Part shown: in pieces, positions 27,104-44,510 of the stretch | Layout of the letters: every line of letters starts with the position of its first letter | Numbering within the stretch: position 1 is the stretch's first letter | Made by a program: the position numbers and the translations under genes | Source: Allocoleopsis franciscana PCC 7113 | GTDB taxonomy: Bacteria; Cyanobacteriota; Cyanobacteriia; Cyanobacteriales; Coleofasciculaceae | NCBI RefSeq assembly: GCF_000317515.1 | Contig: NC_019738.1 | Coordinates: 1,681,623-1,745,622, forward strand | Reading direction: 5' to 3' | DNA: 64,000 bases | The notes under the pieces: generated by a model | The model's database searches: none | Told to the model about the DNA's origin: nothing | What the model saw: the letters and a program-made list of their open reading frames with translations, nothing else

Positions 27104-27662
27104 ACTCTCTGGGTAGAAATATTTTATTCATGGCTTGGTAAGTTGTGGCTGAGTTATACAAAAACTTCAGCATTGACAAGATTTCTCAAAAGAGATAAAT
27201 CTTTGGCGTTATTTGCAACAATTTTTTAGGACTGACGCATTGACACCAACTCCAAAACCGAGGTTAATACGTAATACACGTTATACATTGTATGACGGGT
27301 CGAGAGTCTCACAAACCAAATAAAGGGAAGCCTCAAACAATTTAGAATTTCTAGCTTTCCATAACGTCATTGTGTCCTCGGTGCTCTACCATAATAAACC
27401 CAGAGCATTTACGTCATTAATCGGGTTGAAACCCAAGTCGTAAATGCCGGGTGTACCCTTTTAAAAAGCAGCTTACGTCTTAGAAAGTAAGCTTACTTGA
27501 TTATGCTCAGAATCAGGGAGTCTACTAAACCCTTAAAAAAGTTGATTTCTCTTAACTATTGAGAGAATCTATGAAATCTACCAAAAGTTAGTCAGGGCAT
27601 CTACTATCCAGCCTCTAATCTAACCTTATAAAATTAAACCCATTCCAGGGTGCTACCTTCTG
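27104..27662 (+). promoter_or_regulatory. AT-rich 560-bp upstream region of the surface-protein gene cluster
   Basis: No ORFs. It carries a repeated GCATTGACA (-35-like) motif at about 27166 and 27238, and a stem-loop CATTTACG...CGTAAATG at about 27410-27450. Confidence 0.3.
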
Positions 27663-28580
27663 ATGAAATCTTTATTACCGCAGTTGGGCAGTTTTGAACT
27701 GCTTTTCACTGCATTTCTGACCGCATTCTTCGTCGCTGGTGCGTCACCGCTTACCGCTCAAACTGAAATTAAAAATTCCGCTTCCGCATCCGGAGGGAAT
27801 TTACCAGACGTTGTTCAGTCCAATGAAACTGTACTGACCGCTGGTCAAGCCGTTCTTCAATTAGTCAAAACCGCAGACCGCGCTGCGGCTGAACCCGGTG
27901 ATACCGTCATTTATCGCCTCGCACTGACCAACACCGGAGAGGTTCCAGCCAATCAGATTACGATAACCGACACGCCACCACTAGGAGTGCGGTTTTTACC
28001 AGAGTCATTGCAAGGCGCACTCACCACAGGCAGTACCACCACACCCGTGAGTTTGCCTCCGGCAGTAACAGCAGACCGGCAAATCACTTTTACCTATCCC
28101 AGACTCGCGCCGGGGGAGACACTCACAGTGATTTATGCCTCGGTGGTCACACCAGACGCCGTCCGGGGGGATGGGAGAAATGTGGCGCGGGAGTCTCGCA
28201 GCAATCTAGCCGCCTTTCAACTCCGGATTCGACAGGGCATTTTATCCGACTGTGCCACTATCGTCGGTCGGGTATTTGTCGATAAAAACTTTGACGGGCA
28301 GCAGCAACCTGGAGAACCGGGAGTACCGAATGCGGTGCTTTTCATGGATGACGGCAATCGCATCACCACCGATGCCAATGGCTTATTCTCGTTAGTCAAC
28401 GTCATCGCCGGCCATCGCACAGCCACGTTGGATTTGAGCAGTCTGCCGGGATACAGCCTTGCGCCAAACATCAAATTTATTGAAGGCAATAGCCAGTCAC
28501 GCCTGGTACGGCTCGAACCGGGCGGAATGGCTCGGATGAATTTTGCCGTGACACCCGCTTATGGGGAGCAACAGCAATGA
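27663..28580 (+). CDS. secreted DUF11 (conserved repeat domain) plus Cna-B/SdrD-B-like domain protein
   Basis: Signal peptide LLFTAFLTAFFVAGASPLTAQTE. DUF11-like LVKTADRAAAEPGDTVIYRLALTNTG. B-type beta-sandwich GRVFVDKNFDGQQQPGEPGVPNAVLFMDDGNRITTDANGLFSL. The stop overlaps the next start (ATGA). Confidence 0.7.
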   Translation: MKSLLPQLGSFELLFTAFLTAFFVAGASPLTAQTEIKNSASASGGNLPDVVQSNETVLTAGQAVLQLVKTADRAAAEPGDTVIYRLALTNTGEVPANQITITDTPPLGVRFLPESLQGALTTGSTTTPVSLPPAVTADRQITFTYPRLAPGETLTVIYASVVTPDAVRGDGRNVARESRSNLAAFQLRIRQGILSDCATIVGRVFVDKNFDGQQQPGEPGVPNAVLFMDDGNRITTDANGLFSLVNVIAGHRTATLDLSSLPGYSLAPNIKFIEGNSQSRLVRLEPGGMARMNFAVTPAYGEQQQ

Positions 28581-31500
28581 AAAGCCCTCAAGAAAAGACA
28601 AACAGTAAGGATGAAATATTAAGGATGAAGCATGAAATCATCCCTCGACTCGTGAAAGAGATTTCGCCTTCCACTCAAGCGAATGCTAGCCATTTGGGCA
28701 ACAAATTGAACAGAAAATCCAGCCGCAGAAAGCGCAGGCTTCATCCTTCAGAGTTGACCCTTCAAACTTTTCCTAACAGGATTGCTTTTTACGTTTTACT
28801 ATCGAAAGGCTGGTTTCCCTCACTCAGCTTGGGTTTACTCACCACCCTATTGGGAACCATCGGGCTTATCCCGACAGCTAAGGCTGACGAATTGCCAGAA
28901 CCGCCTAATTTAGGTTTAGGGAAGGATGAAGTATTAACAACCGATGTGTCCTTGAATCATGGGCTGAAAACAGATATTGCATCAGTCTCGGTATATCGTT
29001 TAACTCATTTCCATCAATCGCTGAAGGATGAACCCTTAAATCTGACAAATGAAGCCCTTAATCCTTCATCTTTCGATAAATTTTCCGGTGACAATCAGAA
29101 AATTCACACATTAACTGACTTGCTCAAAGGTGAGGGGGAAGAGGTGCCCCAAACCGTAGAAATCGTCCCGAAAAACGCCTCCGTACAGTCATCTGTCCTC
29201 CGGTCTTTAAACATAGACTCCACAGCAATTGATGCTCCAAGACAAGCCGATAGCCTTCTACCGCGTTCAAAGGATAGTGTTTCCCGCAGCGAAATCCTGC
29301 AAAGACAGGAGTTAGAAGTCCGTGAACAATCGCAACCCAATACTGACACTTCGGAAGCCTTCGCACCCCAAACACCAACCGAGGGACAACTGGAAAATCT
29401 GGGAGAGTCTGCTCGAAAACAGCCTATCCTGGCTCTAACCAATGACCCCAACCGAGTGAGAATCCTATCGCCTTCCCTGGCGCTAAAGCAAAACGACGCC
29501 CCAGCCACAGAAGCCGCCGCACTCGCTCCTGGTACAGTTCGCATTCTCACGCCCCAAAGTGGCGTTACCGACAAAACCTCAACGAACCTCGTCATTCAAT
29601 ACAACGCCAATGACTCGGTTCAGGTCAGTGTGAACCAAAAACCCCTCGACCCTAAGACAGCCACTCAGCAGAACCGGGATGAGGCGCAAAACCTGATTAA
29701 CCAAGCTTGGTACAACATCCCCTTAAAAGAGGGAGACAATACCCTCACCGTCCAAGCTGGAAACGGAACCCCCGTTAGCATTCAGGTTGTGGTGCAAAAG
29801 ACCGCCCTCAAACTAGAAATTGCTCCCGTGGGCGACCCCCGTGTGGCAGCCGATGGTCGTTCCACCCTTACCGTTTCCGGACGCATTACCGATGAAAACG
29901 GTCAACTTTTAAGCGAAGATGCCGTAGTTACCTTAACGGCGGCAGCAGGACAATTTGTCGGTGCCGACCAAGACAAAGACCAACCCGGTTTTCAAGTAAT
30001 GGCACGGGGAGGACAATTCACCGCCCAACTCCAATCCAGCCTAGAGGCGCAAAAGGTGCGGATTCGTGCTGCCCTCGAACCGAAAGAGGAAAAGCAGACA
30101 GGGAGACCGGGCGAGATAGGGAATGCTCCCGCACATTACTCCGAGTCATCCAGTCTCCCCCTCTCCGCCGCTTCCCCTCCGGCAGTGGCACAAACCCCCC
30201 TGGAAGCTTACACCCAGGTGGAATTTGTGACCAATTTACGCCCCTCCTTAGTTTCAGGCGTGATTAACCTGCGAATTGGGCCATCGGGAACTAACTTTTG
30301 GGGCAGGCGGCGAGACTTCCTCAACCCAGAAACCATCGACGACGGCACGGAATTTGACTTACAAGGAGCCGTTTTTGCCACCGGACGGATTGGCGAGTGG
30401 CTGTTCACAGGAGCTTATAACAGCAGCCGCAACCTTAACGAAACTTGTGATGGCATCACCCGTTTGTTCCGAGGGCCACAGTTTTGCGAACAACAATATC
30501 CCGTAACTGGGGATAGTTCTACCGTCGATTACCTCACCCCCTCGATCGATAGCGTTTATCTCCGCTTTGAGCGCAATGCCGGACTGGGGAAAGAACCCGA
30601 CTATGTGATGTGGGGAGACTACAACAGCAACGAGTTCGCCAGAGAATCCCAACTTTTTACCGCCACCACCCGCCAGTTGCATGGCTTCAAAGGCAATTAC
30701 AACTTTGGTAACTTGCAACTCACCGCCATGTTCTCGCGCAACCTCCAAGGGTTCCAACGAGATACCATTGCCCCCAATGGCACCAGTGGTTATTACTTCG
30801 TTTCTCGACGACGCCTGGTTCCGGGAAGTGAGAATATCTTTATCGAAACCGAAGAAGCCAATCGTCCCGGTACCGTGATTTCCCGCAAACCCTTAGGACG
30901 AGGGTCAGACTATGAGATTGATTATGACCGGGGCACGATTTTATTCCGCCGTCCGATTCTCGCCACCGAATTTGCCTTTTTTGATGCGCCGTTGAGTGAG
31001 GCCGGTGCTGGCTCAACCCTGCTCGTGCGGAAGATTGTCGTCACTTACCAATATGAGGGGGGTGTTGAGAGTGACGACACCAATCTCTATGCAGGGCGTG
31101 TACAATACAACTTCTCCCAAGCGTTCCAGCAAGAAAGCTGGCTGGCTGGAACGTACCTACGGCAAGAGCAGGGAATCCAAGACTTTGAACTTTATGGGGC
31201 AGACTTCCGGGTTGCCCTAGGAACCAACGGACAAATCATTGGGGAAGTGGCTCATTCGGAGCATGACTCCCTGTTTCGAGGCAATGTCTCCGGTTCTGCC
31301 TATCGCTTAGAGGCGAATGCGACCATTGTCCCCGGACTGCTGGGACGAGCCTATTACCGATCGGTGGAGGAAAACTTTAGCAATGATGCCACCCTCAGCT
31401 TTACTCCGGGACAAACTCGCTACGGTGCTGCGATCGCTTATTCTATCGGTTCCAGCACCACCTTGCGCGCCGGATACGACTACGAAGAAAACTTTGGCGT

Positions 31501-33016
31501 CTCCCCCCTCATCCGCACCGACTTCTTCGATTTGTTCAACCCAGGCGTCGCCGTCCCTCCGGGTACTGGGGTTAACAACTCCCTGAGAACCATCAGCGCG
31601 GGAGTGCAGCAAAAAATTGGCAATGCAGCATTAAGTGTTGATTTTGTCAACCGTGAGCGCGAAGACCGAGTCGGCAATGTCTTCACCGGTAACGCCTCCC
31701 AACTCGTTTCCCGCCTAGGACTCCCCATCAGCGAAAGCCTGACATTTTTGGCGCAAAATGAACTAAGCCTCGGAGATAATGACCCCCTCTACCCCAATCG
31801 CACCACCTTAGGCATGGATTGGAGAGCTTACAAAGGGGTTACCCTGCGCCTCGCCCACCAATTCTTTGATGGTGGCATTTTGGGCAATGACTCCATCACT
31901 AGCCTGGATACAATTTTGTCCCACAACATCTGGGATAACACCACCATCACCGGTCGCTATTCCGTGATTAGTGGCTTCAACGGGGTAACCGGACAGGGGG
32001 CGGTAGGACTCAATCACCGTTGGACTGTTTCCCCAGGATTACTGGTGAATCTGGGCTATGAGCATACCTTTAGCAACACCGGGATTGCCACAGCGGCTGG
32101 GGTGCGCTTTGCTCAACCCTATACTGTCGGTCAAACCGCTGCCTCCCTTGCCTTATTAGGGGGCGATGTGTTCAATATCGGCGTGGAATATACCGATAAC
32201 CCCGACTTTAAAGCCTCTGCCCGCGTCGAACACCGCACGGGTTCCGGCAACAACAACACCGTGTTTTCCATTGCCGGGGCAGGGAAACTTTCTCCCTCCT
32301 TAACCCTCCTTGCCCGTTACGAGCAAGCCAACTTTGCCAACCAGCTCATTGAAGGGTTGAAAGATACGGCAAACCTCCGGGTAGGTTTAGCCTATCGCGA
32401 CCCCAATAGCGATCGCTGGAACGCCCTGATGCGCTATGAGTACCGCAAAAACCCCTCTACCATTCCCGAAACCCTACTCTTTGGCAGTGGTACCGGTTCC
32501 ACAGAACACCTATTTGCCGGAGAGGCGATTTTTGCCCCCAGTTGGCGATGGGAATTTTATGGCAAAGGCGCAGTCCGTTACAGCAACACCGATTTAGCCA
32601 ATAACTTCTCCAATGCTTCTACCATCTTCCTGACCCAACTCCGCGCTGCCTACCGCCTGAATTACCGGATGGATTTGGCGGTAGAAGGACGCTGGATTGG
32701 TCAAGATTCGCCCGGTTACAGCGAAACCGGCATAGCTGTAGAAACAGGCTATTATGTCACCCCCGATTTACGCCTCGCCTTGGGCTATAGTTTCGGCGGT
32801 GTGGATGACCGAGACTTTACCGGCTATCGCTCCAAAGGCGGCGTTTACTTTAATTTGACCTTCAAAGTCAACGAACTCTTCGGCGGCTTTGGACGGCAAA
32901 AAGTGGTGCCACCCCAACAGCAGGAATCGCTGACAAAACCCGTTGCCAACCAGCCAACATCGGATACCCCAGGGACGCAATCGAGCCGCCCTTCTAATAC
33001 CACGAGTGAGGAGTGA
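28577..33016 (+). CDS. very large predicted outer-membrane protein: extended signal peptide, Big_1-like Ig domain, C-terminal beta-barrel-like region of about 900 aa
   Basis: A 60-aa basic N-extension precedes the hydrophobic core (NRKSSRRKRRLHPSELTL...LLTTLLGTIGLIPTAKA). Ig-like segment TLTVQAGNGTPVSIQVVVQKT...STLTVSGRITDENGQ. The C-terminal half is full of alternating-hydrophobic, aromatic-ended strands (LRAGYDYEENFG, LRVGLAYRD, YYVTPDLRLALGYSFGG, VYFNLTF). Confidence 0.6.
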   Translation: MKSPQEKTNSKDEILRMKHEIIPRLVKEISPSTQANASHLGNKLNRKSSRRKRRLHPSELTLQTFPNRIAFYVLLSKGWFPSLSLGLLTTLLGTIGLIPTAKADELPEPPNLGLGKDEVLTTDVSLNHGLKTDIASVSVYRLTHFHQSLKDEPLNLTNEALNPSSFDKFSGDNQKIHTLTDLLKGEGEEVPQTVEIVPKNASVQSSVLRSLNIDSTAIDAPRQADSLLPRSKDSVSRSEILQRQELEVREQSQPNTDTSEAFAPQTPTEGQLENLGESARKQPILALTNDPNRVRILSPSLALKQNDAPATEAAALAPGTVRILTPQSGVTDKTSTNLVIQYNANDSVQVSVNQKPLDPKTATQQNRDEAQNLINQAWYNIPLKEGDNTLTVQAGNGTPVSIQVVVQKTALKLEIAPVGDPRVAADGRSTLTVSGRITDENGQLLSEDAVVTLTAAAGQFVGADQDKDQPGFQVMARGGQFTAQLQSSLEAQKVRIRAALEPKEEKQTGRPGEIGNAPAHYSESSSLPLSAASPPAVAQTPLEAYTQVEFVTNLRPSLVSGVINLRIGPSGTNFWGRRRDFLNPETIDDGTEFDLQGAVFATGRIGEWLFTGAYNSSRNLNETCDGITRLFRGPQFCEQQYPVTGDSSTVDYLTPSIDSVYLRFERNAGLGKEPDYVMWGDYNSNEFARESQLFTATTRQLHGFKGNYNFGNLQLTAMFSRNLQGFQRDTIAPNGTSGYYFVSRRRLVPGSENIFIETEEANRPGTVISRKPLGRGSDYEIDYDRGTILFRRPILATEFAFFDAPLSEAGAGSTLLVRKIVVTYQYEGGVESDDTNLYAGRVQYNFSQAFQQESWLAGTYLRQEQGIQDFELYGADFRVALGTNGQIIGEVAHSEHDSLFRGNVSGSAYRLEANATIVPGLLGRAYYRSVEENFSNDATLSFTPGQTRYGAAIAYSIGSSTTLRAGYDYEENFGVSPLIRTDFFDLFNPGVAVPPGTGVNNSLRTISAGVQQKIGNAALSVDFVNREREDRVGNVFTGNASQLVSRLGLPISESLTFLAQNELSLGDNDPLYPNRTTLGMDWRAYKGVTLRLAHQFFDGGILGNDSITSLDTILSHNIWDNTTITGRYSVISGFNGVTGQGAVGLNHRWTVSPGLLVNLGYEHTFSNTGIATAAGVRFAQPYTVGQTAASLALLGGDVFNIGVEYTDNPDFKASARVEHRTGSGNNNTVFSIAGAGKLSPSLTLLARYEQANFANQLIEGLKDTANLRVGLAYRDPNSDRWNALMRYEYRKNPSTIPETLLFGSGTGSTEHLFAGEAIFAPSWRWEFYGKGAVRYSNTDLANNFSNASTIFLTQLRAAYRLNYRMDLAVEGRWIGQDSPGYSETGIAVETGYYVTPDLRLALGYSFGGVDDRDFTGYRSKGGVYFNLTFKVNELFGGFGRQKVVPPQQQESLTKPVANQPTSDTPGTQSSRPSNTTSEE

Positions 33017-33026
33017 ATAGTTAGGA

Positions 33027-35387
33027 GTGCAATACAACTTATTGGAATTTTCGGTCATGCGGGGAGTCAACCGTCCAGCGTCAAACTTGAACAAGGCAGA
33101 AGAAGGAAGGCAGGAGGCAGAAGTTAGCCAAGTTTGCCCTTCTCTGGTGGAAAGAAAGCGCAACAACAAGCCTTTTGCCTGGTTATTTTTGAGTTTTGAC
33201 CAAAAAAGGCCGAAGGCAGAAGACAGGAGGCATGAGAAGGAATGCCCTTTGCCCTTTGCCTTCTACCTTCCTCAATTGCTCCTGCTGAGTGTTTTAGTCG
33301 CGCCACTGAGGGCGACAGCCCAGCCGACCAATTCTGTATCCGTGGTGGTGAATAGTAATCAGGATGGCCTGATTCAACCCGACAATCGCTTAACCTTGCG
33401 GGAGGCGATCGCCATTGTCAACGGTCAGCTCAGTCTAGAACAATTGAGTCAGGCGGAAAAAGCCCAAGTTCGACCCCTCGATGCCAATACAGCCTCTCGC
33501 ATTGAATTTAATTTACCTCCAGACCAAACCACCATTTACCTCCAAAGCCTATTACCATCCCTAGCCAGTCCGGGATTAGTGGTGGATGGGACAACCCAAC
33601 CGGGTTATGATCCAACCCGTTCAGCAACCGCAGAAATTGAAATTCCCATTCCTGTGGTGGCTCTAGCACCCGCACCCAACCAAGAAGTCCTGCGGGGACT
33701 CACGATTGTTGCCGATAACATCACCGTGCGGGGTTTAAGCCTCTATGGCTTTGGCAAGTGGGGTGGGGCGACACTCAACACCCCACCGGGAGATATTGTG
33801 ATCGAGCGGAGTCCTGCATTTCCTGATGTCACACTCCAGCCACCCACCTCTAGTTTGGATTTGAGGAGTCCTAAACCTAACTCAAAACCCAGCGAATCCC
33901 AGCCACCGAAGAATGTCGCGATTGAACTGAATTGGTTGGGTATCCCACCCAATGGGCAAATGCCCAGTCAGTTATCAGCCTTTGGCTTGTATGTGTTTAA
34001 CAGTCTAGGTACCACCATTCGACGCAACCGCATTGCCAATCATCAGGGCAGTGGCATCATTACCGGCGCTCAAGCCGAGAATATGTTGGTAACAGAGAAC
34101 ATCATCGTGGGTAATGGGCTAGCTGGAATGCCCGATGCCATTCGCCTCGAAGGGCAGATTGACCAGTCACAAATTACAGGCAATTTAATTTGTGGCAATG
34201 ATGGCAGTGGGGTGTATTTGTTTAAGCCCAAGGGTGCTGTACAAATTCGCAATAACCAAATCACCTCGAACGGCAGACGCTTGCGTCAGGCGGCTGTTTA
34301 CCTGATGGGCAATAATCATCAGGTGATGGATAACCAAATTAGTTATCAGTCGGGGCCGGGTGTGGTGGTGACGGCTTATCCCCAAAACGACGTTCAGCAG
34401 AATCGCTCCTCTTCGCGCAACATCATTGAGAACAATCGCTTTGCCCAACTCGAAGGGTTGAGTATTGACCTCAACACCCAACAGAATGTTAACCCGATTC
34501 ATTTTCAACGGGGGGATGGCCCGAATCCTCTCCGGAATTCGCCCAACCGACGGGAAGAAACGGGGAATGCGGCGATTAATGCGCCGCAGTTTCTCAGTTC
34601 AGAGTTTTTTGTGTTGGGAACAGAGGTGAAGCTGTTTGGCAAGGCTGATCCGGGTTCAACGGTTGAAGTGTATCGAGTTCGGGAAAATACAACAATCCCC
34701 TATGGCCCGTTAAGTGAACCCCTCACGAGTGTGGCGACCGATGAGCAAGGGGATTTTAGCGTCACGGTGGATAATTTACAGCCTGGGGACAAAGTCAGCG
34801 CGATCGCCACTCATCCCCAGTACGGCACCTCTGAACCGGCGCTCAATGCCAGGGTTCTTGCGGCGGATGGGACTGGCACAGCCCAACCTGATGTACCCTC
34901 TGGTGTGATTCCCCCATGTACGACGGCACAAGTACCACCCAATCCCCCAGAACCGACTCCTCCACCAGAACAACTAAGGCTGTCTGTTGCGCGGAATATC
35001 CATTTCGCTCTCGACCAATCCACCATCAGTCCAGAAAGCGCCGTCATCCTCGACCAAATTGTTGCGGTGATGCGCTCTTATCCCTTTCTCACCGTTGACA
35101 TTCAGGGTCACACTGACCCCCGTGCCAGTGCGGCCTACAACCAAGCCTTAGGAATGCGTCGTGCGATCGCCGCACGAAATTACCTGTTGCGTCAAGGAAT
35201 TGCTCCAGAACGCTTGACAATTCGGTCATTTGGTGAATTAGAACGCCGAACCACGGGCAGTGACGTTGTGGATTATGCACGCGATCGCCGCGTAGAGTTC
35301 ATCTTCCAAGATACGAGAGGCTTGGAAATCATCTTTGAAAATCAAGAAACCGACTTGCAAGTAGAACCTAGGGGAGGATCGAGGTAG
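33027..35387 (+). CDS. secreted right-handed beta-helix protein with C-terminal OmpA-like peptidoglycan-binding domain
   Basis: Signal-like PFAFYLPQLLLLSVLVAPLRATAQP. Parallel beta-helix repeats (GNLICGNDGSGVYLF, IRNNQITSNG). C-terminal OmpA_C-like DIQGHTDPRASAAYNQALGMRRAIAARNYLLRQGIAPERL. The 5' 220 nt contain STRR-like repeats, so the real start is probably the TTG near 33249. Confidence 0.65.
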   Translation: MQYNLLEFSVMRGVNRPASNLNKAEEGRQEAEVSQVCPSLVERKRNNKPFAWLFLSFDQKRPKAEDRRHEKECPLPFAFYLPQLLLLSVLVAPLRATAQPTNSVSVVVNSNQDGLIQPDNRLTLREAIAIVNGQLSLEQLSQAEKAQVRPLDANTASRIEFNLPPDQTTIYLQSLLPSLASPGLVVDGTTQPGYDPTRSATAEIEIPIPVVALAPAPNQEVLRGLTIVADNITVRGLSLYGFGKWGGATLNTPPGDIVIERSPAFPDVTLQPPTSSLDLRSPKPNSKPSESQPPKNVAIELNWLGIPPNGQMPSQLSAFGLYVFNSLGTTIRRNRIANHQGSGIITGAQAENMLVTENIIVGNGLAGMPDAIRLEGQIDQSQITGNLICGNDGSGVYLFKPKGAVQIRNNQITSNGRRLRQAAVYLMGNNHQVMDNQISYQSGPGVVVTAYPQNDVQQNRSSSRNIIENNRFAQLEGLSIDLNTQQNVNPIHFQRGDGPNPLRNSPNRREETGNAAINAPQFLSSEFFVLGTEVKLFGKADPGSTVEVYRVRENTTIPYGPLSEPLTSVATDEQGDFSVTVDNLQPGDKVSAIATHPQYGTSEPALNARVLAADGTGTAQPDVPSGVIPPCTTAQVPPNPPEPTPPPEQLRLSVARNIHFALDQSTISPESAVILDQIVAVMRSYPFLTVDIQGHTDPRASAAYNQALGMRRAIAARNYLLRQGIAPERLTIRSFGELERRTTGSDVVDYARDRRVEFIFQDTRGLEIIFENQETDLQVEPRGGSR

Positions 35388-38371
35388 TGCAGCGCAATTC
35401 CAGCCGATTCGGCGTCCAGACGTGGAAAAAAAAAGTCCGAATATTGATCAGCTTGCTTAAGTTTTCTGCCAATAAAATCCTGCCCCGTCGGAGTCAGGGA
35501 GCGATTTCTGGCTATCCAAAAGGCTCACTGATGTTCCGGAAGTTTGGGTATGCGCTCATCAGCCTCTTGACTCTTGTGGCGGTGGTGGTGGGTTACTACT
35601 CTCCAGCCTTGACACAGAGTGTTCCTGCTCCGGACAGTTTTATTTGCGATCGTACCTTGTATATCAGTCAAGGGCTACTCAACCAAAATTCCACACTCTC
35701 CAGCGTCATCACAACGCCTAACTTTGCTCTTAACACGGTTGGTACCGCAACGGTTCAGTACAACGCCATCGGCTTGAATGTTCGCGATGGGTTTATTTAT
35801 GGCATTGCTCCTCAATCCGACCCTGGATCGAATTTACCTCCAACCATTTATCGAATTAATAATACAGGAGCAGCTACTGCCATCGGTGCTCCACAACCCA
35901 ATGGAGCTATTGTTTTTGATCCAATTCCAAATGGTAATCCTAACCAGAGTTTTGCTTTCGCTGGCGATATCAATAGAAACGGGATCTACTTTGTATATGT
36001 CACTAACATCCCTGCACCCGGAAATAATCTCTTCGCGATCGATCTAGCAACTAATCCCAATACCCCTACTATGGTCAGTAGTCTGAGAGTCCAAAGAGCT
36101 GACGGTACAAGTCCTGACCTTTCGGACATTTCTTTCAATCCTGTGGATGATCAGCTCTATGCTTTTGACAGCTTCAGAGTTAATGGGCAGCCATCATCTC
36201 AAGGTCAGATGGCTAGAATCGACACGACTACTGGCGCAGTCACCTACTTTGGCGCGACACAACCCAATGTGGGTATTGTTGGTGCATCTTTCTTTGATGC
36301 GTTTGGTAACTTTTACACTTATGAAACTACGGGTAATATATCTGTCGCACGTAATCTTTCAAGTTCTAATCCTGTTGTATTTTCACCACTCGGAAATGCT
36401 GGAGTCGTTCAAAGATTTGACGGTGCATCCTGTGCCTTTGCGCCAGTTGCGGAAAAGATTGTCGAGCCTCAATCAGTCGCAGCCAATGGCATCATCACTT
36501 ACAGATATCGTCTCGCTAACCAACTAGGACAGCCATTAAGTACTGCAAACTTGTCATTTACCGACCAGTTGCCTGCTGGATTGACCTACGTCGATCAAAC
36601 GCTCAACAATACTAGCGTGGGTGGCACTCCTAATGCTTATGGCGGAACTCCACTGCTGCAAATTGCAGGGATTACCATCCCACCTAGAGGTTTTGTCGAA
36701 ATCAGCGTGAATGTCCGGGTTAGTTTGACTGCATCTCCTGGCACAGTCTTGAATCAAGCCACAATCAATAACGTTCCATCCGTGCCTGGAGTGACCCTTC
36801 CACCTACGATTCCGTCGGATTTTCCTCCCACAGGTATTTACCCTGATCCGACACCCTTAGTCATTACTCCAGCTCCCCCTACCCCAAGGATTGGTTTAGC
36901 CAAGAGAGTGGCATCTAGTGTGAACCTTGGCAACGGTGTCTTTCGAGTGACGTATGCACTCGTCGTCAGCAACCTAGGGAATGTTGACCTCAACAATGTA
37001 CAAGTTACAGAAGATCTTACGACTACTTTTGCTAACGCAACATCCTTTACTGTTGCCCCAAATAGCGTTAGTAGTCCAAGCGGCGACCTCACTCCTAATC
37101 CCAACTACAATGGTCGCGCTGACAACCCTAATTTGCTAACCGGTACAACCAATACATTAACCGTTGGTCAAAGCAAGACCATTCAATTTATTGTCGATGT
37201 TACCCCAGGAGCAAACTTAGGGCCTTACAACAACCAAGCTGTGGCAAGCGGTACCGATCCCAATGGTCAAACGGTTACAGATCTATCCCAAAATGGCACG
37301 AACTCAGACCCCGATAACGATGGCAACCCCGCCAATAACAATGACCCCACCCCAGTCAACTTCAACCAAACACCGGCTTTAGGGGTTGCCAAGGAAGTCG
37401 TTTCCATTGTCCCTGCTGACGCAGGAAACTCCACCGTAACTTACAGAATCCGTGCCCGAAACTACGGACAAGAGAATCTCACTAATCTCCAGCTTACGGA
37501 AAACCTTACCACGACCTTCGACAACATACCTTTTACGGTTCCTGCCAATAGTGTCACAAGTCCTAATGGCAACCTCACGCCTAATTCTAATTACAATGGT
37601 CGTACTGACATCAATTTGCTGGTGGGTACAGATACCTTAGCTGTTGGTGAAACAAAAGTCATTGAATTCATCGTCATTATCACCCCTGGTAACCAAACTC
37701 GTACCTATGAAAACCTGGTACAAGGAACAGCTCAAAGTCCTTCCGGCTCAGTGAGTGACCAATCGCAAGCTGGGATTAACCCAGACCCCGATAACGATGG
37801 CAACCCAACCAATAACAATGACCCGACTCCATTGGATGTAGGGCCAAACTTGCGCTTGGTGAAACGGATTACAAATGTAATCCGAAGTGGTGCACCAATT
37901 AGTGGAATTGACTTCCAAAGCTTTGTTGATAACCTCAATGACCGCAACGACAATGTTTCTGGATGGTCTCAACTTCCGGGTGGAGTTCTCACAGGAGTTT
38001 TCCGCATCGGTTCTGATGCTCTATTACAAACTGGAGATGAAGTCGAATACACCGTTTACTTCCTCTCGGATGGAACTCAACTTGTCACGGATGCCAAAGT
38101 CTGTGACCCCATTCCAGAGAAGACCACATTTATTCCTGACAGTTTTCAAGCCGGTCAAGGGATTTTGTTGAATCAACAGACAACCAATACATCTCTAACT
38201 AATGCTTTAGATACAGACCAAGGAACATTTTTCTCTCGTCTTACTCCTGTTACCTCTCCCTGTCCCAATACCAACAACTCTAACGGGTCAATCTTAGTAA
38301 ATCTGGGAGATTTACCTGCCACCCCCCCTAACAACGTTGGTTTCATCCGTTTCCGCGTGAGAATCGATTAA
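35387..38371 (+). CDS. cell-surface DUF11-repeat protein with unassigned Cys-containing N- and C-terminal domains (paralog 1)
   Basis: The likely start is the ATG at 35531 (MFRKFGYALISLLTLVAVVVG signal/anchor). N-domain of about 330 aa with two conserved Cys. Three DUF11-like repeats (NLGNVDLNNVQVTEDL). Conserved C-terminal domain of about 170 aa (LRLVKRITN...VCDPIP...SPCPNTNN...VGFIRFRVRID). Confidence 0.65.
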   Translation: MQRNSSRFGVQTWKKKVRILISLLKFSANKILPRRSQGAISGYPKGSLMFRKFGYALISLLTLVAVVVGYYSPALTQSVPAPDSFICDRTLYISQGLLNQNSTLSSVITTPNFALNTVGTATVQYNAIGLNVRDGFIYGIAPQSDPGSNLPPTIYRINNTGAATAIGAPQPNGAIVFDPIPNGNPNQSFAFAGDINRNGIYFVYVTNIPAPGNNLFAIDLATNPNTPTMVSSLRVQRADGTSPDLSDISFNPVDDQLYAFDSFRVNGQPSSQGQMARIDTTTGAVTYFGATQPNVGIVGASFFDAFGNFYTYETTGNISVARNLSSSNPVVFSPLGNAGVVQRFDGASCAFAPVAEKIVEPQSVAANGIITYRYRLANQLGQPLSTANLSFTDQLPAGLTYVDQTLNNTSVGGTPNAYGGTPLLQIAGITIPPRGFVEISVNVRVSLTASPGTVLNQATINNVPSVPGVTLPPTIPSDFPPTGIYPDPTPLVITPAPPTPRIGLAKRVASSVNLGNGVFRVTYALVVSNLGNVDLNNVQVTEDLTTTFANATSFTVAPNSVSSPSGDLTPNPNYNGRADNPNLLTGTTNTLTVGQSKTIQFIVDVTPGANLGPYNNQAVASGTDPNGQTVTDLSQNGTNSDPDNDGNPANNNDPTPVNFNQTPALGVAKEVVSIVPADAGNSTVTYRIRARNYGQENLTNLQLTENLTTTFDNIPFTVPANSVTSPNGNLTPNSNYNGRTDINLLVGTDTLAVGETKVIEFIVIITPGNQTRTYENLVQGTAQSPSGSVSDQSQAGINPDPDNDGNPTNNNDPTPLDVGPNLRLVKRITNVIRSGAPISGIDFQSFVDNLNDRNDNVSGWSQLPGGVLTGVFRIGSDALLQTGDEVEYTVYFLSDGTQLVTDAKVCDPIPEKTTFIPDSFQAGQGILLNQQTTNTSLTNALDTDQGTFFSRLTPVTSPCPNTNNSNGSILVNLGDLPATPPNNVGFIRFRVRID

Positions 38372-38737
38372 CCGTCAGCCAATCAGCTAGGGGTAGAGAG
38401 GGTTATGCTCACTCTACTCCTATAGATAGGTTTGATAACTGTAGCAAAACGGTATTATCAACTCTTCTGGTTTCATCAGGTTGCAAGAGGGTAATTTGCT
38501 CTCTATTGTTAGCAAAATCCAGAATCTGTGTAATCGCTCTTTGTAGCAGCACTTAATTACGAGCCATCTCAAATCTCTGGGATGGCTTAACTTTCTAATT
38601 ATCTATAAGTAATTCAAAGGAGTTGATATAAGTCCTTGATTTGCAACGTTTGATTGGGTGTTGCTTGCGTTTTCCCATTGGGCATCTAACATGCTAAGCG
38701 CTCACTCAGCAAATGCTGACAGAACTAAAATTTAGGT

Positions 38738-41197
38738 TTGCATCACGAAAACTATCTGTACAAAAGCTGTGTTTGTGCTATTTTGGTATTTTTTTCTTAC
38801 CAGAAGCATCGTGAAAGAGAGGTTAACAAGGTCGTGTATCGCAATTACCTCCAAGCAGCCGCTCAAACTTGGACGAGAAAAGCACTCATTACCATCAATA
38901 GAGGCGGCAATTATTGGCGCAAACGAATCAATCGTTTGACCGCTTTCATCGCTGCTTTAATTTTAGCGATCGCATTGAGCTACTCTCCTCCAGCGCCAGC
39001 ACAATCTTCAGCAAATTTCCCTTGTACAAACACATTGTATGTGAGTCGTGGTCAAGCAGCAGATGTGAACGATCCGACTGAACTCAACACCGTAAACATC
39101 AACATCAATCCGTTTACCTTAGACCCGATTGCTGGTATTCCTATCAGTGCCAATATCCGCTACAACGCGATCGGTTTTAATTTTCAAGATGGATTGATTT
39201 ATGGCATCGATCCCGACACCCGGACTGTTTATCGGATTGCGCCCAATGGACTACCTACCTCACTCGGTGTTCCTGCGGGTTTACCTGGACAACCGATTTT
39301 GTATTTAGCCGGCGATGTCGATGTCAATGGCAACTACCTAGTCTTAAGCAGTAATCCGCAGAATCCACAGAACCAAACACTCTTTACGATTAATGTAGCA
39401 GGAGCGGCGGCGACATTAGTTGGTGCGGCGGTAACCCTATCACAACCCACTGAAATAGCCGACTTTGCTATCAATCCCAGAGATGGACAACTTTATGGCT
39501 TTGATACTATCTCAAGACAGATTGCTAGAATTAACCGCACGACGGGCGCGGTTACGTTCTTGCCTTCACTCAATCCCCAAATTGGTACAGTTGGGGGAGC
39601 CTTCTTTGATGCCTTTGGTCAGTTTTTCGCCTACGAAACGAGTGCCAGTAACAGTGCTTTTTACCTCGTCAATGTGGGTACTGTTGATGCTCCTGGTACG
39701 GGTCAATTTACTCTGCTGAGTACTACAAGAGGAGTAGTCAGAAATGATGGTGCCGCTTGTGCTTTTGCCCTACAAGTTGAGAAGAGTGCGTCACCTGAAA
39801 CAGTTCCTGCGGGGGGAACTGTTACCTACATCTATCGCATTGCCAACATCAGTCCGTTGACCTTGACGAACTTGAGGTTCAGGGACGAAATGCCAGATGG
39901 AAGGACATTCGTTGCGGACACGCTAAGGTTAACAGAAATTAGTGGCAGCACTCCCAACAACTATGGCAGTACTAACCTCTTGGAAATTACGGGTATTACG
40001 ATTCAAGCCAGAACCATTGCTCAAATCAGTGTGGATGTTCGGGTTCCGCCTAACACCCCCCCTGGCACAATTTTCAATCAATCTGAACTGTTTGGTCTTC
40101 CACCTACATTCGGCAATCCGACGCTTCTATCAGATTACATTCCTGTCGTGGGATTCCCTGACCCAACACCGTTGCAAGTTACAGCCAGTCCAGTTATTGG
40201 TGCGGCTAAGACAGTAGCCTCTGTGGTTGACTTGGGCAACGGCAATTTTCAATTCACTTACACCATCACCATCCAGAATTTGGGCAATGTTGACCTCAAC
40301 AATGTCCAAGTCACGGAAAATCTCTCCAATACCTTTGGTTCAACGCCGTTTACTGTCAATCGCGTTAGCACTCCGACGGGTAATCTTGCCCCCAATAACA
40401 ACTTCAATGGCATTAATGATACGAATCTGTTAACTGGTACAGATACACTAGCGATCGGCCAAACAAAAACCATTGAACTCGTTGTCACAATTACTCCTGG
40501 GAACAACCCCGGCCCCTATAACAACCAAGTGGAAGCCATCGCTGAAAGTCCTGTCGGCCCTACGAGTGACATTTCCACCGATGGTCTTAACCCCGATCCA
40601 GATGGTAACGGTAACCCTAACGATAACAGCAATTCGACCCCGCTAGATTTAGCGAACCCTCCAGGAACAGAGCCACGCTTGCGCTTGGTGAAGCGTATCA
40701 CCAATGCAACGCAAAGCGGTGTACCGATTAGCGGGATTAATTTCAATCTTGTTGTGAATGACCTCAAAGATATTAATGATGATGCTTCGGGATGGTCTCA
40801 ACTGCCTGGAGGGTTGTTAGGGGTGATCAACCTAGAATCAGAAATATCCTTACAAAGTGGAGACGAAGTCGAGTACACTATTTATTTCCTCTCCGATGGC
40901 TCCCAAGAGGTGAACAATGCTCGTCTTTGTGACCCCATTCCTGCGGGAACCACGTTTATCTTTGACCGTTTTGGCGGCGGTCGTGGAATTTTGTTAAATC
41001 AAAATGGCACACAGACTCCCCAAACGAATGCATCGGATACAGACCAGGGAACATTTGCCTCTCCTCTCACTCCCGTAACCTCTCCCTGTCCGAATACCAA
41101 CAATCCCAATGGCTCTGTGTTATTACAACTGGGAGATCTTCCCAACACGCCCCCAAGTAATGTCGGATTTGTTCGCTTTGCCGTCAAAATCGACTAA
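38738..41197 (+). CDS. cell-surface DUF11-repeat protein, tandem paralog 2
   Basis: Same architecture as the 35531..38371 product. Matching segments include YNAIGFNFQDGLIYGIDP, DGAACAFA, NLGNVDLNNVQVTENL and the C-terminal LRLVKRITN...LCDPIP...SPCPNTNN...VGFVRFAVKID. The nominal TTG start at 38738 is probably too far upstream; the signal segment is RLTAFIAALILAIALS. Confidence 0.65.
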   Translation: MHHENYLYKSCVCAILVFFSYQKHREREVNKVVYRNYLQAAAQTWTRKALITINRGGNYWRKRINRLTAFIAALILAIALSYSPPAPAQSSANFPCTNTLYVSRGQAADVNDPTELNTVNININPFTLDPIAGIPISANIRYNAIGFNFQDGLIYGIDPDTRTVYRIAPNGLPTSLGVPAGLPGQPILYLAGDVDVNGNYLVLSSNPQNPQNQTLFTINVAGAAATLVGAAVTLSQPTEIADFAINPRDGQLYGFDTISRQIARINRTTGAVTFLPSLNPQIGTVGGAFFDAFGQFFAYETSASNSAFYLVNVGTVDAPGTGQFTLLSTTRGVVRNDGAACAFALQVEKSASPETVPAGGTVTYIYRIANISPLTLTNLRFRDEMPDGRTFVADTLRLTEISGSTPNNYGSTNLLEITGITIQARTIAQISVDVRVPPNTPPGTIFNQSELFGLPPTFGNPTLLSDYIPVVGFPDPTPLQVTASPVIGAAKTVASVVDLGNGNFQFTYTITIQNLGNVDLNNVQVTENLSNTFGSTPFTVNRVSTPTGNLAPNNNFNGINDTNLLTGTDTLAIGQTKTIELVVTITPGNNPGPYNNQVEAIAESPVGPTSDISTDGLNPDPDGNGNPNDNSNSTPLDLANPPGTEPRLRLVKRITNATQSGVPISGINFNLVVNDLKDINDDASGWSQLPGGLLGVINLESEISLQSGDEVEYTIYFLSDGSQEVNNARLCDPIPAGTTFIFDRFGGGRGILLNQNGTQTPQTNASDTDQGTFASPLTPVTSPCPNTNNPNGSVLLQLGDLPNTPPSNVGFVRFAVKID

Positions 41198-41371
41198 TTC
41201 TCGTCTTGATACTGCCAGCATCAGCGAACATACTAGAGCATAGGTTCAGGAGTCACTGTCTGAAAGGAAAGCTGGGAGGAAAGGGGTGGGGGGATAGAGA
41301 AAATATGTTTTTAACTCTCTCCACTCACCCTTTCACCCTCATGACTCCAGCCCGATTTCAATGCAAAACGC

Positions 41372-41977
41372 GTGTACAGATACCTCTTGTTTTACAAACC
41401 CTACAACGTCTTAAGCCAGTTTACGGATCAGGACGCCAGTCAGCTCAACCGTGGCACTCTGAAAGATTACATTCCCATCCCTTCGGTTTACCCGGTGGGA
41501 CGACTTGATCGGGACAGCGAAGGACTGCTGCTATTAACCAATCATGGACGCTTGCAGCATCGACTTTCAGATCGACGATTTTGTCATCCTCGCACATACT
41601 GGGTACAGGTAGAGCGTATTCCGGATGAAGCGGCCTTGAACCAGTTACGTAGTGGTGTGGTCATTCAGGATTACCACACACGACCCGCTTTGGTGCAGCG
41701 ATTAGCCGAGGAACCCCTTCTACCCCCTCGTCAACCTCCGATACGCTTTCGTAAGACTGTGCCTACCTCTTGGCTAGAGATAACCTTAACGGAGGGGAGG
41801 AATCGACAGGTGCGGCGGATGACGGCGACGGTAGGGTTTCCCACATTGCGAATCGTTCGGATTGCGATCGGCGTCGCTGGTAAGAAGGACTTGACTCAAC
41901 TCCGTTTAGATGGTCTTGAGCCTGGTCAATGGCGTGACCTAACACCGACTGAACTGGAGGCTCTACAGCAGCTATGA
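41372..41977 (+). CDS. rRNA pseudouridine synthase, RsuA/RluE family
   Basis: GTG start. [14 protein letters not shown]...[16 protein letters not shown] (catalytic Asp motif) ...GRNRQVRRM, about 200 aa. Confidence 0.8.
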
Positions 41978-42146
41978 CGACTCAAGTTAGTCTTAGCTGG
42001 ATTGCTATCCGCTCACGCATAAGCTTCATCAGCTTAGGACTAGATTCCAAAAGCTGCAACCTTCGATTCTGACGTGGCAAACTAGATGGCAGTTAGCTTA
42101 TATACCAAACTTTAAAACCTCTGACAGGAAGTGAGGAAGTTCCCTT

Positions 42147-44447: not shown

Positions 44448-44510
44448 AATCAGCTAAAGGCAAAGGCCAGAAACCATCCCGACTTCTGCCTTTTTATTTT
44501 TTACCCAGAT

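What the first reader, a model, noticed from the sequence alone, without database searches (positions are those of the whole stretch)
27663..41197. Five-gene cluster of secreted/outer-membrane proteins: candidate uncharacterised surface-structure or secretion module
Five co-directional genes sit with near-zero spacing. There is an ATGA stop/start overlap at 28577-28580, a 10-nt gap at 33016/33027, and a 1-nt overlap at 35387. In order they encode:
- a DUF11 plus Cna-B-like secreted protein
- a roughly 1480-aa protein with an extended signal peptide, an Ig-like domain and an approximately 900-aa beta-barrel-like C-terminus
- a beta-helix protein with an OmpA-like peptidoglycan anchor
- two tandem paralogous DUF11-repeat proteins whose N- and C-terminal Cys-bearing domains I cannot place in any family

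The arrangement of a small surface subunit, a giant outer-membrane barrel, a PG-anchored beta-helix and repeat-rich fibre-like proteins resembles pilus/usher or autotransporter-like logic but matches no canonical system I know. The cluster sits behind a 560-bp AT-rich region.
Basis: partly seen in the sequence, partly recalled or inferred. Interest (0 to 1): 0.65.

Follow-up and report, generated by a model that had tools for sequence, protein, structure and literature searches.

The report
Cyanobacterial giant-barrel adhesin display module
These five genes form a module conserved in hundreds of cyanobacterial genomes: an unnamed giant outer-membrane barrel, a small partner protein, a cell-wall tether and long adhesin-like proteins that share a private C-terminal tag, which most likely puts adhesins on the cell surface by a route nobody has described.

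Summary
Window = Allocoleopsis franciscana. Five co-directional ORFs (27663-41197) encode:
- g1: a small CLIPPER/DUF11 protein.
- g2: a 1479-aa protein with two Ig-like domains and a predicted barrel of roughly 36 strands.
- g3: beta-helix + Big_6 + OmpA-like domain.
- g4 and g5: paralogues built as DUF6923 head, CLIPPER stalk and a conserved ~175-aa C-terminal domain (CTD).

Synteny across 80 cyanobacterial loci is very strong:
- g1 lies directly upstream of g2 in 70/70 testable loci. The 4-nt stop/start overlap is kept in 47.
- g3 follows in 47/68.
- A CTD-ending gene follows in 57/60.

Outside cyanobacteria, g1-like and g2-like parts are fused in one ORF, and some barrels carry a fused OmpA domain.

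The CTD always ends the protein while its passengers vary. Its model (pLDDT 92) is a complete CnaA/CLIPPER-like Ig domain.

Best reading (confidence 0.55): a dedicated outer-membrane platform that exports and/or anchors CTD-tagged fibrillar adhesins, tethered to peptidoglycan. Usher, autotransporter, two-partner, T9SS, T11SS and TonB-receptor membership all failed. Function and topology remain inferred.

The parts
27104..27662 (+). AT-rich upstream region. It holds a candidate promoter (TTGACA at 27239-27244), a long leader, and two TCAGGGNNTCTAC direct repeats at 27513-27525 and 27592-27604.
   Evidence: GC about 0.40. The repeats are the only exact copies in the window. They recur in the orthologous upstream regions of L001-L003. 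The generic promoter scan was not above chance.
27663..28580 (+). g1: a 305-aa secreted two-domain Ig-like protein and the obligate partner of the barrel. It has a signal peptide, a CLIPPER/DUF11 domain (aa 65-159, 27855-28139) and an SdrD_B/transthyretin-like domain (aa 201-252, 28263-28418).
   Evidence: Pfam DUF11 41.5 bits, TIGR01451 54 bits, SdrD_B 22.7 bits (below cutoff). It lies upstream of g2 in 70/70 loci, with a 4-nt overlap in 47. It is fused in-frame to the g2-like part in L081, L086, L087 and L088.
28577..33016 (+). g2: a 1479-aa outer-membrane protein. Its parts are:
- Extended signal peptide, aa 1-103, cleavage about AKA|DE.
- Variable low-complexity region, aa 104-329.
- Two Ig-like domains, aa 330-500 (29564-30076).
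- Disordered linker, aa 504-540.
- Giant beta-barrel region, aa 542-1430 (30200-32866).
- Disordered tail, aa 1438-1479.
30368..31066 (+). Most conserved core of g2 (aa 598-830). It is a beta-rich stretch that overlaps the end of the first four long strands and carries two conserved Cys. It is a candidate plug, gate or substrate-binding insert.
   Evidence: 70% identity among cyanobacterial homologues and 27% in distant ones, against 62% and 19% for the rest of the barrel. In L088 it is the only g2 part that aligns, and in L082 the alignment begins there (aa 598-1282). pLDDT is 85-95 with short strands. No Pfam hit even at E ≤ 5. The plug role is inference.
33027..35387 (+). g3: a 786-aa periplasmic protein. 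It has a signal peptide (core aa ~75-98), a right-handed beta-helix (Pfam matches aa ~316-488, 33972-34490), a Big_6 Ig domain (aa 532-605, 34620-34841) and an OmpA/Pal-like peptidoglycan-binding domain (aa 660-745, 35004-35261).
   Evidence: Pfam OmpA 59.7 bits, Beta_helix 47.4 bits, NosD 31.1 bits. It matches PDB Pal structures at E 6e-14. It lies downstream of g2 in 47/68 loci, 38 of them with the OmpA end. An OmpA domain is fused to the barrel ORF in P0107, P0109 and P0110.
35387..38371 (+). g4: a 994-aa fibrillar-adhesin-like cargo protein. It has an extended signal peptide, a DUF6923 head (aa 92-349, 35660-36433), CLIPPER and CLIPPER_2 stalk domains (36452-36772, 36884-37282 and a third near 37430-37759) and a CTD (aa 820-994, 37844-38368).
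   Evidence: Pfam DUF6923 79.3 bits, DUF11 45.8 bits, DUF7507 42.4 bits. It is a paralogue of g5. CTD alignment A2.
38738..41197 (+). g5: an 819-aa ORF whose likely start is GTG 38834 (787 aa). It has a DUF6923 head (39056-39763), CLIPPER (39770-40087) and CLIPPER_2 (from 40199) stalk domains, and a CTD (aa 646-819, 40673-41194).

Best explanation
The five genes are one functional module. It is a dedicated outer-membrane platform that exports and/or anchors CLIPPER-type fibrillar adhesins on the cyanobacterial surface.

Proposed mechanism:
1. All five products cross the inner membrane by Sec. g2, g4 and g5 have extended signal peptides.
2. g2 inserts into the outer membrane as a single, very large barrel of roughly 36 strands. 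Its most conserved ~230-aa core acts as a gate or binding site.
3. g1 is made in fixed ratio with g2 through translational coupling. It sits on g2 as an Ig-like adaptor; in other phyla it is simply part of the same chain.
4. g3 ties the complex to peptidoglycan through its OmpA-like domain. Its beta-helix and Ig domain span or organise the periplasmic side.
5. g4 and g5 (propeller-like head, isopeptide-type Ig stalk, CTD) are the cargo. Their terminal CLIPPER-like CTD is recognised by g1/g2. The passenger passes through the barrel lumen and the CTD stays docked, leaving head-out, tail-anchored adhesins.

What is shown: gene linkage, the fusions, domain identities, the predicted folds, and the constancy of the CTD against variable passengers. 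What is inferred: outer-membrane topology, which component binds the CTD, whether the barrel is a pore or only an anchor, and the adhesive function.
For: - Synteny: g1 upstream of g2 in 70/70 loci, overlap kept in 47/70, g3 in 47/68, CTD gene in 57/60.
- Reciprocal test: two large CTD proteins picked without regard to context (P0217, P0325) sit in g1-g2-g3-CTD clusters.
- Rosetta-stone fusions: a g1-like segment (aa 65-300) is fused directly N-terminal to the g2-like part in L081, L086, L087 and L088. OmpA is fused to the barrel in P0107, P0109 and P0110.
- Non-cyanobacterial barrels are also flanked by CLIPPER, SpaA_3 or CshA_NR2 adhesin-like ORFs. In L081, L086, L087 and L088 the downstream ORF overlaps the barrel ORF by 4 nt.
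- The CTD family has 1214 representatives at E < 1e-30. In full-profile hits the match ends at or within 1-7 residues of the protein's C-terminus, in proteins of 227-2266 aa.
- Passengers vary: DUF6923+CLIPPER here, 5x SdrD_B in L036, CLIPPER-only in L020, GEVED in L085 and L090.
- g2 model: two Ig domains plus a barrel of roughly 36 strands. Best Foldseek hits are the largest known barrels, SlpA and SprA.
- CLIPPER domains are established stalk modules of surface fibrillar adhesins (PMC12617251).
Against: - There are no expression, localisation or interaction data.
- No energy source or inner-membrane partner is conserved in the cluster.
- Barrel closure, strand number and the 'plug' were read from a DSSP string and fold hits, not from coordinates. 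TM-scores to known barrels are low (0.16-0.20).
- g3 is absent or undetected in about 30% of loci.
- One small, distant CTD-family protein (P0172, L089) lies away from any barrel.
- The N-terminal Ig/g1 part could be periplasmic (usher-NTD-like) or surface-exposed (autotransporter-like). The data do not decide.
- The adhesin role of DUF6923 is unproven.
Confidence: 0.55

Rival explanations
1. Chaperone-usher-like pilus. g1 is a two-Ig-domain periplasmic chaperone, g2 is the usher, and CTD proteins are subunits polymerised into a fibre.
Confidence: 0.13
2. Uptake complex of the SusCD or TonB-receptor kind. g2 is a gated transporter, and the CLIPPER/DUF6923 proteins are surface substrate-capture partners.
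For: NCBI names some homologues 'TonB-dependent receptor' or 'OprO/OprP porin'. Distant relatives carry an N-terminal CarboxypepD_reg-like domain, as SusC-type receptors do. TBDTs appear among the fold hits. g3 has a CASH/NosD-type beta-helix, a fold common in carbohydrate-active proteins.
Against: There is no Plug or TonB_dep_Rec hit, even at lenient thresholds. No TonB/ExbBD, ABC or MFS importer is conserved next to the module. The barrel is far larger than 22 strands. The partners have adhesin-stalk architecture and a private terminal domain rather than lipoprotein anchors.
Confidence: 0.1
3. Envelope scaffold. g2 and g3 are mainly an outer-membrane-to-peptidoglycan pillar, like Deinococcus SlpA or OmpA/Pal. 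The CLIPPER proteins form a surface or sheath layer attached to it, with export by another route.
Against: It does not explain why the cargo keeps a private terminal domain, or why g1 is translationally coupled or fused to the barrel. No alternative exporter is encoded nearby. This overlaps with, rather than excludes, the best explanation (anchor without pore).
Confidence: 0.15
4. A chance neighbourhood of unrelated adhesin and outer-membrane-protein genes.
For: g4 and g5 are separated by a 366-462-nt gap containing a terminator-like hairpin at 38643-38664. The flanking genes are unrelated.
Against: The synteny statistics, conserved overlaps, fusions and the reciprocal context test all argue against it.
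Confidence: 0.02

Closest known systems
Chaperone-usher pili (FimC-FimD-FimH type)
   Same: A small two-Ig-domain secreted protein is encoded just before a large outer-membrane barrel that carries a conserved internal insert, followed by Ig-fold surface proteins. No ATP source exists at the outer membrane.
   Different: There is no sequence or convincing fold membership. The barrel has roughly 36 rather than 24 strands. The cargo domain is a complete fold. The g1 equivalent is fused to the barrel in other phyla. The cargo is usually one large multidomain protein.
Type IX secretion (SprA translocon, C-terminal-domain cargo, PorE peptidoglycan anchor)
   Same: It has a giant single-chain barrel. 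SprA is among the top Foldseek hits by E-value. The cargo is defined by a conserved Ig-like C-terminal domain with variable passengers. An OmpA-type peptidoglycan-binding component is present. CLIPPER adhesins are known T9SS cargo elsewhere (PMC12617251).
   Different: TM-score to SprA is only 0.16-0.20. The CTD gets no Por_Secre_tail hit; the only hit was a weak (E 1e-5, 26.2 vs 27 bits) mid-protein match in the L036 passenger, not its CTD. At about 175 aa it is CnaA/CLIPPER-like. No GldLM-like motor genes are seen in the module or in the flanks examined. Cargo genes sit next to the barrel.
Type V secretion (autotransporters, intimin/invasin) with the TpgA-type peptidoglycan anchor
   Same: Invasin/intimin-like Ig domains lie next to a barrel in one chain. 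In distant relatives, long Ig-repeat N-terminal regions precede the barrel, as in a passenger-barrel layout. A separate OmpA-like partner gene lies downstream, as tpgA does next to ataA (weak NCBIfam TpgA match).
   Different: There is no Autotransporter or inverse-autotransporter beta-domain hit. The barrel is about three times larger than 12 strands. The main adhesins are separate polypeptides.
Deinococcus SlpA (SLH domain plus 30-strand barrel)
   Different: g2 has no SLH domain or coiled coil. Identity is about 10% and TM about 0.2. SlpA has no coupled CLIPPER partner or CTD cargo.
CLIPPER/DUF11 fibrillar adhesins, e.g. Acinetobacter silvestris B9T28_05395 (PDB 9ifr)
   Same: g1, g4 and g5 contain bona fide CLIPPER domains. 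The layout is head, stalk and anchor. OmpA-like anchoring is used in the same functional context.
   Different: Here the anchor is not part of the adhesin. It is a private terminal CLIPPER-like domain plus a separate barrel, partner and OmpA protein. This sorting route is not among those listed for CLIPPER proteins (Por_secre_tail, CHU_C, LPXTG; an OmpA-like anchoring domain is described for the crystallised Acinetobacter adhesin).

Membership tests
CLIPPER / DUF11 (PF01345, TIGR01451) | Profile match above the curated cutoff | tested here: met
   g1 scores 41.5 bits (Pfam) and 54 bits (TIGR01451). g4 scores 45.8 and 82.4. g5 scores 68.2 and 84.4. The cutoffs are 24.6 and 24.
CLIPPER / DUF11 | Intramolecular Lys-Asn isopeptide bond with a catalytic Asp/Glu | not tested
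   A sequence search of the g5 stalk region against the PDB did not align to 9ifr. Mass spectrometry or a crystal structure is needed.
DUF6923 (PF21959) | Profile match above the curated cutoff | tested here: met
   g4 scores 79.3 bits and g5 111.2 bits, against a cutoff of 27.
OmpA-like peptidoglycan-binding domain (PF00691) | Profile match above cutoff and similarity to solved Pal/OmpA C-domains | tested here: met
   g3 aa 660-745 scores 59.7 bits against a cutoff of 27.2. It matches Pal structures at E 6e-14.
Outer-membrane beta-barrel (MBB clan, generic) | A closed antiparallel transmembrane barrel with similarity to known outer-membrane barrels | tested here: met
Chaperone-usher pathway | Usher family barrel (PF00577, with PapC_N/PapC_C) and a PapD-like chaperone | tested here: not met
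Chaperone-usher pathway | Subunits with an incomplete Ig fold that need a donor strand | tested here: not met
   The CTD is modelled alone as a complete beta-sandwich, with pLDDT 92.1 and pTM 0.88.
Type V secretion (classical and inverse autotransporters) | A 12-strand Autotransporter or IAT_beta domain | tested here: not met
Two-partner secretion | An Omp85/ShlB transporter with POTRA domains, and a TPS domain on the cargo | tested here: not met
   g2 has no POTRA or ShlB hit, and g1, g4 and g5 have no TPS domain. The TPS domain in the window belongs to the separate upstream gene 22379-27103.
Type IX secretion | A SprA-family translocon and a Por_Secre_tail/CHU_C cargo domain | tested here: not met
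   Foldseek to SprA gives E about 6e-8 but TM 0.16-0.20. Neither the window's CTDs nor the precomputed Pfam of its homologues show a T9SS CTD family. The CTD fold is CnaA/CLIPPER-like.
Type XI secretion (Slam/DUF560) | A DUF560 14-strand barrel with TPR, and a cargo with a C-terminal beta-barrel domain | tested here: not met
   No DUF560 hit. The CTD is a beta-sandwich, not a barrel.
TonB-dependent receptor | An N-terminal Plug domain with a TonB box, plus a 22-strand TonB_dep_Rec barrel | tested here: not met
   No Plug or TonB_dep_Rec hit at E ≤ 5 on sub-regions. The NCBI names on some homologues are not backed by a family match here.

The most novel reading that the evidence does not exclude
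The g1-g2-(g3) unit and its CTD-tagged cargo are a previously undescribed outer-membrane protein secretion and anchoring pathway: a new 'type' of system. It would be widespread in cyanobacteria, with fused-chain relatives in Acidobacteriota and in other, taxonomically unassigned bacteria. A roughly 36-strand barrel would let folded, possibly isopeptide-locked Ig-domain adhesins cross the outer membrane, and would retain them through a dedicated terminal CLIPPER-like domain.
Probability: 0.35. Interest if true: 0.88.

Novelty: new variant of a known kind. Interest (0 to 1): 0.68.

Why it matters
How cyanobacteria get large proteins across and onto their outer membrane is poorly understood. As far as I know they lack T9SS and the classical type V and usher systems, yet they encode many CLIPPER/DUF11 'fibrillar adhesin' proteins with no known sorting route.

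This module offers a concrete, testable candidate route. It consists of an unnamed giant barrel family (at least 562 genome loci), an obligate Ig-like partner, a peptidoglycan tether and a private C-terminal sorting domain (about 1200 sequence clusters). If confirmed, it would add a new outer-membrane display or secretion pathway. It would also explain the surface anchoring of a large class of cyanobacterial adhesins relevant to mats, biocrusts, sheaths and symbioses. And it would provide a CTD tag for surface display in cyanobacterial biotechnology.

The same barrel family, with the partner fused, points to a broader system across phyla.

Tried and rejected
- The PDB sequence search with the g2 family profile found only GH2-type Ig domains and no barrel relative.
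- PDB sequence searches with g1 and g5 found nothing.
- The AlphaFold-database library (afdb50) was not available, so annotated predicted-structure neighbours could not be checked.
- Lenient Pfam scans of g2 sub-regions gave only DUF2490 and sub-threshold Ig families.
- NCBIfam has no family for g2.
- Eight literature searches found no description of the barrel, the CTD or DUF6923. They covered DUF11 with outer-membrane, cyanobacteria, DUF6923, CLIPPER, giant-barrel, exoproteome, isopeptide-pilin and SdrD/usher terms.
- The third homologue search, using the conserved g2 core, returned only cyanobacterial fragments.
- Rfam found no RNA family in 26500-42500.
- The promoter and terminator scans were not above chance.
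- An attempt to align the stalk to the CLIPPER crystal structure, to check the isopeptide triad, failed.
- Rejected: TPS-CHAT upstream gene as cargo of g2. g2 has no Omp85/POTRA features, and that gene is syntenic only in the closest relatives.
- Rejected: exopolysaccharide export. There are no glycosyltransferase or Wzx/Wzy genes in the conserved module.


Full report
**Identity and observation**

The window is from Allocoleopsis franciscana (formerly Microcoleus sp. PCC 7113). The g2 product is 100% identical to an NCBI 'hypothetical protein' of that species on a 7.47-Mb contig.

The ATGA overlap of g1 and g2 at 28577-28580 is visible in the sequence. The 10-nt g2/g3 gap and the 1-nt g3/g4 overlap hold for the longest ORFs. 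The g4 GTG has a GGAGG 9 nt upstream, and its 48-residue N-extension is 71% conserved in the closest relative.

Two details need correction. g4 and g5 are separated by 366 nt. The g5 start is more likely GTG 38834, because the orthologous stretch upstream of it in L001 contains a stop codon. The upstream intergenic region is 559 bp at about 40% GC.

**Domain content**

- g1 has a CLIPPER/DUF11 domain above cutoff and a sub-threshold SdrD_B-like domain.
- g3 has a right-handed beta-helix, a Big_6 Ig domain (sub-threshold, 21.6 vs 27.6 bits) and an OmpA domain. The OmpA domain matches solved Pal structures at E 6e-14.
- g4 and g5 are paralogues.
It is followed by CLIPPER and CLIPPER_2 domains.
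- Pfam now calls DUF11 'CLIPPER'. [quoted passage not shown]

**The g2 protein**

g2 has no Pfam or NCBIfam family on the full-length sequence. I aligned residues 330-1479 with 57 homologues and modelled them (mean pLDDT 76.7, pTM 0.67). The model shows:

- two Ig-like sandwiches (aa 330-500);
- a disordered 37-residue linker;
- an all-beta region from aa 542 to 1430, with about 36 long antiparallel strands;
- a disordered Pro/Gln/Ser-rich tail.

After the first four long strands comes a stretch of shorter, very confidently modelled strands. Residues 598-830 are the best conserved part of the protein: 70% identity among cyanobacterial homologues and 27% in distant ones, against 62% and 19% for the rest of the barrel. 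This stretch has no Pfam match even at E ≤ 5. I read it as a candidate plug, gate or binding insert, which is an inference.

So a very large outer-membrane barrel is well supported as a prediction, and it belongs to no solved or named family. I could not inspect coordinates, so closure and the exact strand count are not verified.

**Linkage**

A scan of one genome per species found at least 562 loci encoding a g2 relative. The best 80 are all cyanobacterial and span Coleofasciculaceae, Nostocales, Leptolyngbyales, Oculatellales-type taxa, Fischerella and Calothrix. Fragments also come from Chlorogloea and Hydrococcus.

I ran the window's proteins against these loci with tblastn:

- g1 is directly upstream of g2 in 70 of 70 loci with enough upstream DNA.
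- The g2 start overlaps the g1 stop by 4 nt in 47 of them, 42 as ATGA.
- A g3-type beta-helix gene follows in 47 of 68. In 38 of these it keeps the OmpA end.
- At least one gene ending in the C-terminal ~175 residues of g4/g5 follows within 10 kb in 57 of 60. There is one such gene in 44 loci, two in 11 and three in 2.

The flanking genes change between lineages. The RluA, PP2C and FHA-kinase genes downstream persist only in some. The conserved unit is therefore g1, g2, usually g3, and one or more CTD genes.

**The CTD**

Only the last ~175 residues of g4/g5 are conserved across lineages. The passengers differ: DUF6923 plus CLIPPER here, five SdrD_B domains in Nostoc carneum, CLIPPER only in Calothrix parasitica, and GEVED or P_proprotein modules elsewhere.

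The alignment shows a motif: LxLVKRIT ... PGDEVEYTIYFLS.G ... CD.IP..TTF ... C ... NGAVVVNLG ... YGFVRFRVKV. In the aligned sequences the protein ends within one or two residues of it. There are two invariant Cys.

A profile search of 1.84 billion representative proteins found 1214 hits at E < 1e-30. In full-profile hits the match ends at or within 1-7 residues of the C-terminus of proteins 227-2266 aa long. Those that carry names are cyanobacterial, annotated as 'DUF11 domain-containing' or 'isopeptide-forming fimbrial' proteins.

**Reciprocal context test**

I picked four CTD proteins without regard to context.

- Two large ones (P0217, P0325) sit in g1-g2-g3-CTD clusters. The large unannotated neighbours there are 50% and 43% identical to g2.
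- One small protein (P0183) is the third of three consecutive CTD-ending genes. The flank was too short to see a barrel.
- One small, more distant member (P0172) is an orphan next to an Rce1-like protease gene.

Linkage is therefore strong but not absolute. Some cargo-like genes may be scattered.

**Relatives outside cyanobacteria**

Distant g2 homologues (22-26% identity) are proteins of 1700-2400 aa, from Pyrinomonadaceae (Acidobacteriota) where a name is given and from unnamed metagenomic bacteria otherwise.

- In L081, L086, L087 and L088, a segment matching g1 residues 65-300 (E 1e-14 to 1e-20) lies in the same ORF, directly N-terminal to the g2-like part.
- P0107, P0109 and P0110 also carry an OmpA domain in the same chain.
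- These barrel ORFs are flanked by CLIPPER, SpaA_3 or CshA_NR2 adhesin-like ORFs. In four of the five loci (not L082) the downstream ORF overlaps the barrel ORF by 4 nt.
- L082, L087 and L088 share three small upstream ORFs. In L082 one of them ends with a weak CTD-like match (E 8e-5).

These Rosetta-stone fusions are the strongest evidence that g1, g2 and an OmpA domain act in one physical complex.

**Mechanism**

The best-supported reading is an outer-membrane platform for surface display of CLIPPER fibrillar adhesins.

- Shown: conserved co-location and translational coupling, the fusions, domain identities, a predicted giant barrel, and a constant terminal domain on variable passengers.
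- Read directly from the sequences: N-terminal hydrophobic cores with AXA-like sites in all five proteins. In g2, g4 and g5, conserved N-terminal extensions precede them.
- Inferred: the barrel is inserted by BAM, consistent with a beta-signal-like GGVYFNLTF in the last strand. g1 is an adaptor on the barrel. g3 tethers the complex to peptidoglycan. The CTD docks on g1/g2 while the passenger traverses the wide lumen, giving head-out, tail-anchored adhesins.

A 30-plus-strand lumen could pass folded Ig domains, as ushers and SprA do. Folding or bond formation outside could supply directionality.

I cannot decide whether the N-terminal Ig/g1 part is periplasmic (like the usher N-terminal domain) or threaded to the surface (like an autotransporter passenger). 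I also cannot decide whether the barrel is a pore or only an anchor.

**Rivals**

- A chaperone-usher-like pilus fits the gene order. It is disfavoured by the complete CTD fold, by the g1-barrel fusion, by the predominance of a single large CTD protein per locus, and by the absence of any usher or chaperone family signal.
- An uptake complex of the SusCD or TonB type is suggested by some database names and by N-terminal CarboxypepD_reg-like domains. There is no Plug, TonB box family or linked importer.
- An envelope-scaffold role like SlpA is compatible with the fold hits and the OmpA link. It overlaps with an 'anchor only' version of my explanation.
- Chance adjacency is excluded by the synteny.

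**Comparison with known systems, and novelty**

The module works most like barrel-dependent display systems: ushers, type V with TpgA, and T9SS with its C-terminal-domain cargo and PorE. Every defining family feature I could test for those systems was not met (see the membership table).

The published survey of CLIPPER proteins lists Por_secre_tail, CHU_C and LPXTG as co-occurring sorting/anchoring domains, and describes an OmpA-like anchoring domain in the crystallised Acinetobacter adhesin. None of these is the terminal domain found here. Eight full-text searches found nothing on this barrel, the CTD or DUF6923.

I file it conservatively as a new variant of a known kind: barrel-mediated display of Ig-fold adhesins, built from an unnamed barrel family and an unnamed sorting domain. 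There is a substantial chance (about 0.35) that it is a distinct secretion or anchoring pathway.

Interest is 0.68. The module is conserved, widespread, uncharacterised and directly testable, but all functional claims are still in silico.

Noticed in passing
window 27513-27525 and 27592-27604 (also about 27646-27657): The direct repeat TCAGGGNNTCTAC occurs twice within 150 bp upstream of the g1 start. These are the only exact copies in the 64-kb window. Similar copies are present in the orthologous upstream regions of L001-L003. It may be a regulator-binding site or a leader-RNA element. A conserved TTGACA at 27239-27244 would imply a leader of about 390 nt.
   Followed up: partly
window 22379-27103 (+) and 16952-20005 (+): The upstream gene encodes a TPS secretion domain, a Calx-beta domain and a C-terminal CHAT protease domain (1574 aa). 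A second CHAT protein with TPR repeats lies at 16952-20005. No ShlB/POTRA-type TpsB transporter is found among the window's ORFs of at least 150 aa that were scanned, so the partner of this two-partner-type exoprotein is elsewhere.
   Followed up: partly
window 28577-28885, 35387-35530, 38834-38990: g2, g4 and g5 carry conserved N-terminal extensions before the hydrophobic signal-peptide core. In g2 it reads MKxPQEK...GIAFYLLLSKGWFPS. g4 and g5 share V[QY]RN..QTWxKK..I. This recalls the extended signal peptide regions of proteobacterial type V proteins.
   Followed up: partly
window 41372-45809: RluA-like pseudouridine synthase, zinc-ribbon + PP2C phosphatase and FHA + Ser/Thr kinase genes stay directly downstream of the module in Coleofasciculaceae. 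They are also kept in several Leptolyngbya, Stenomitos and Pantanalinema loci. It is unclear whether this is regulatory linkage or just an inherited neighbourhood.
   Followed up: no
L089 10001-10837 and L090 1-10828: A small orphan CTD-family protein in Mastigocoleus testarum lies away from any barrel, next to an 879-aa Rce1/CPBP-like intramembrane protease gene. Another locus has three consecutive genes that each end in a CTD, two of them with GEVED domains.
   Followed up: partly
L051 and L071 (Calothrix sp. NIES-3974); L016 and L046 (Tolypothrix carrinoi): Some genomes carry two separate copies of the g1-g2 module at different chromosomal positions.
   Followed up: no
L082 6991-9766, L087 7335-9941, L088 7376-9984: Non-cyanobacterial relatives share a conserved trio of small ORFs just upstream of the fused g1-g2-type barrel gene. 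Their sizes are about 323-356 aa, about 152-164 aa (weak CLIPPER) and about 349-383 aa. This looks like a pilin-like subunit set.
   Followed up: no
L084 4585-8374: In this MAG the g2 orthologue is called as two ORFs (1111 aa and 161 aa) with overlapping homology at 7871-7902. This suggests a frameshift or an assembly error.
   Followed up: no
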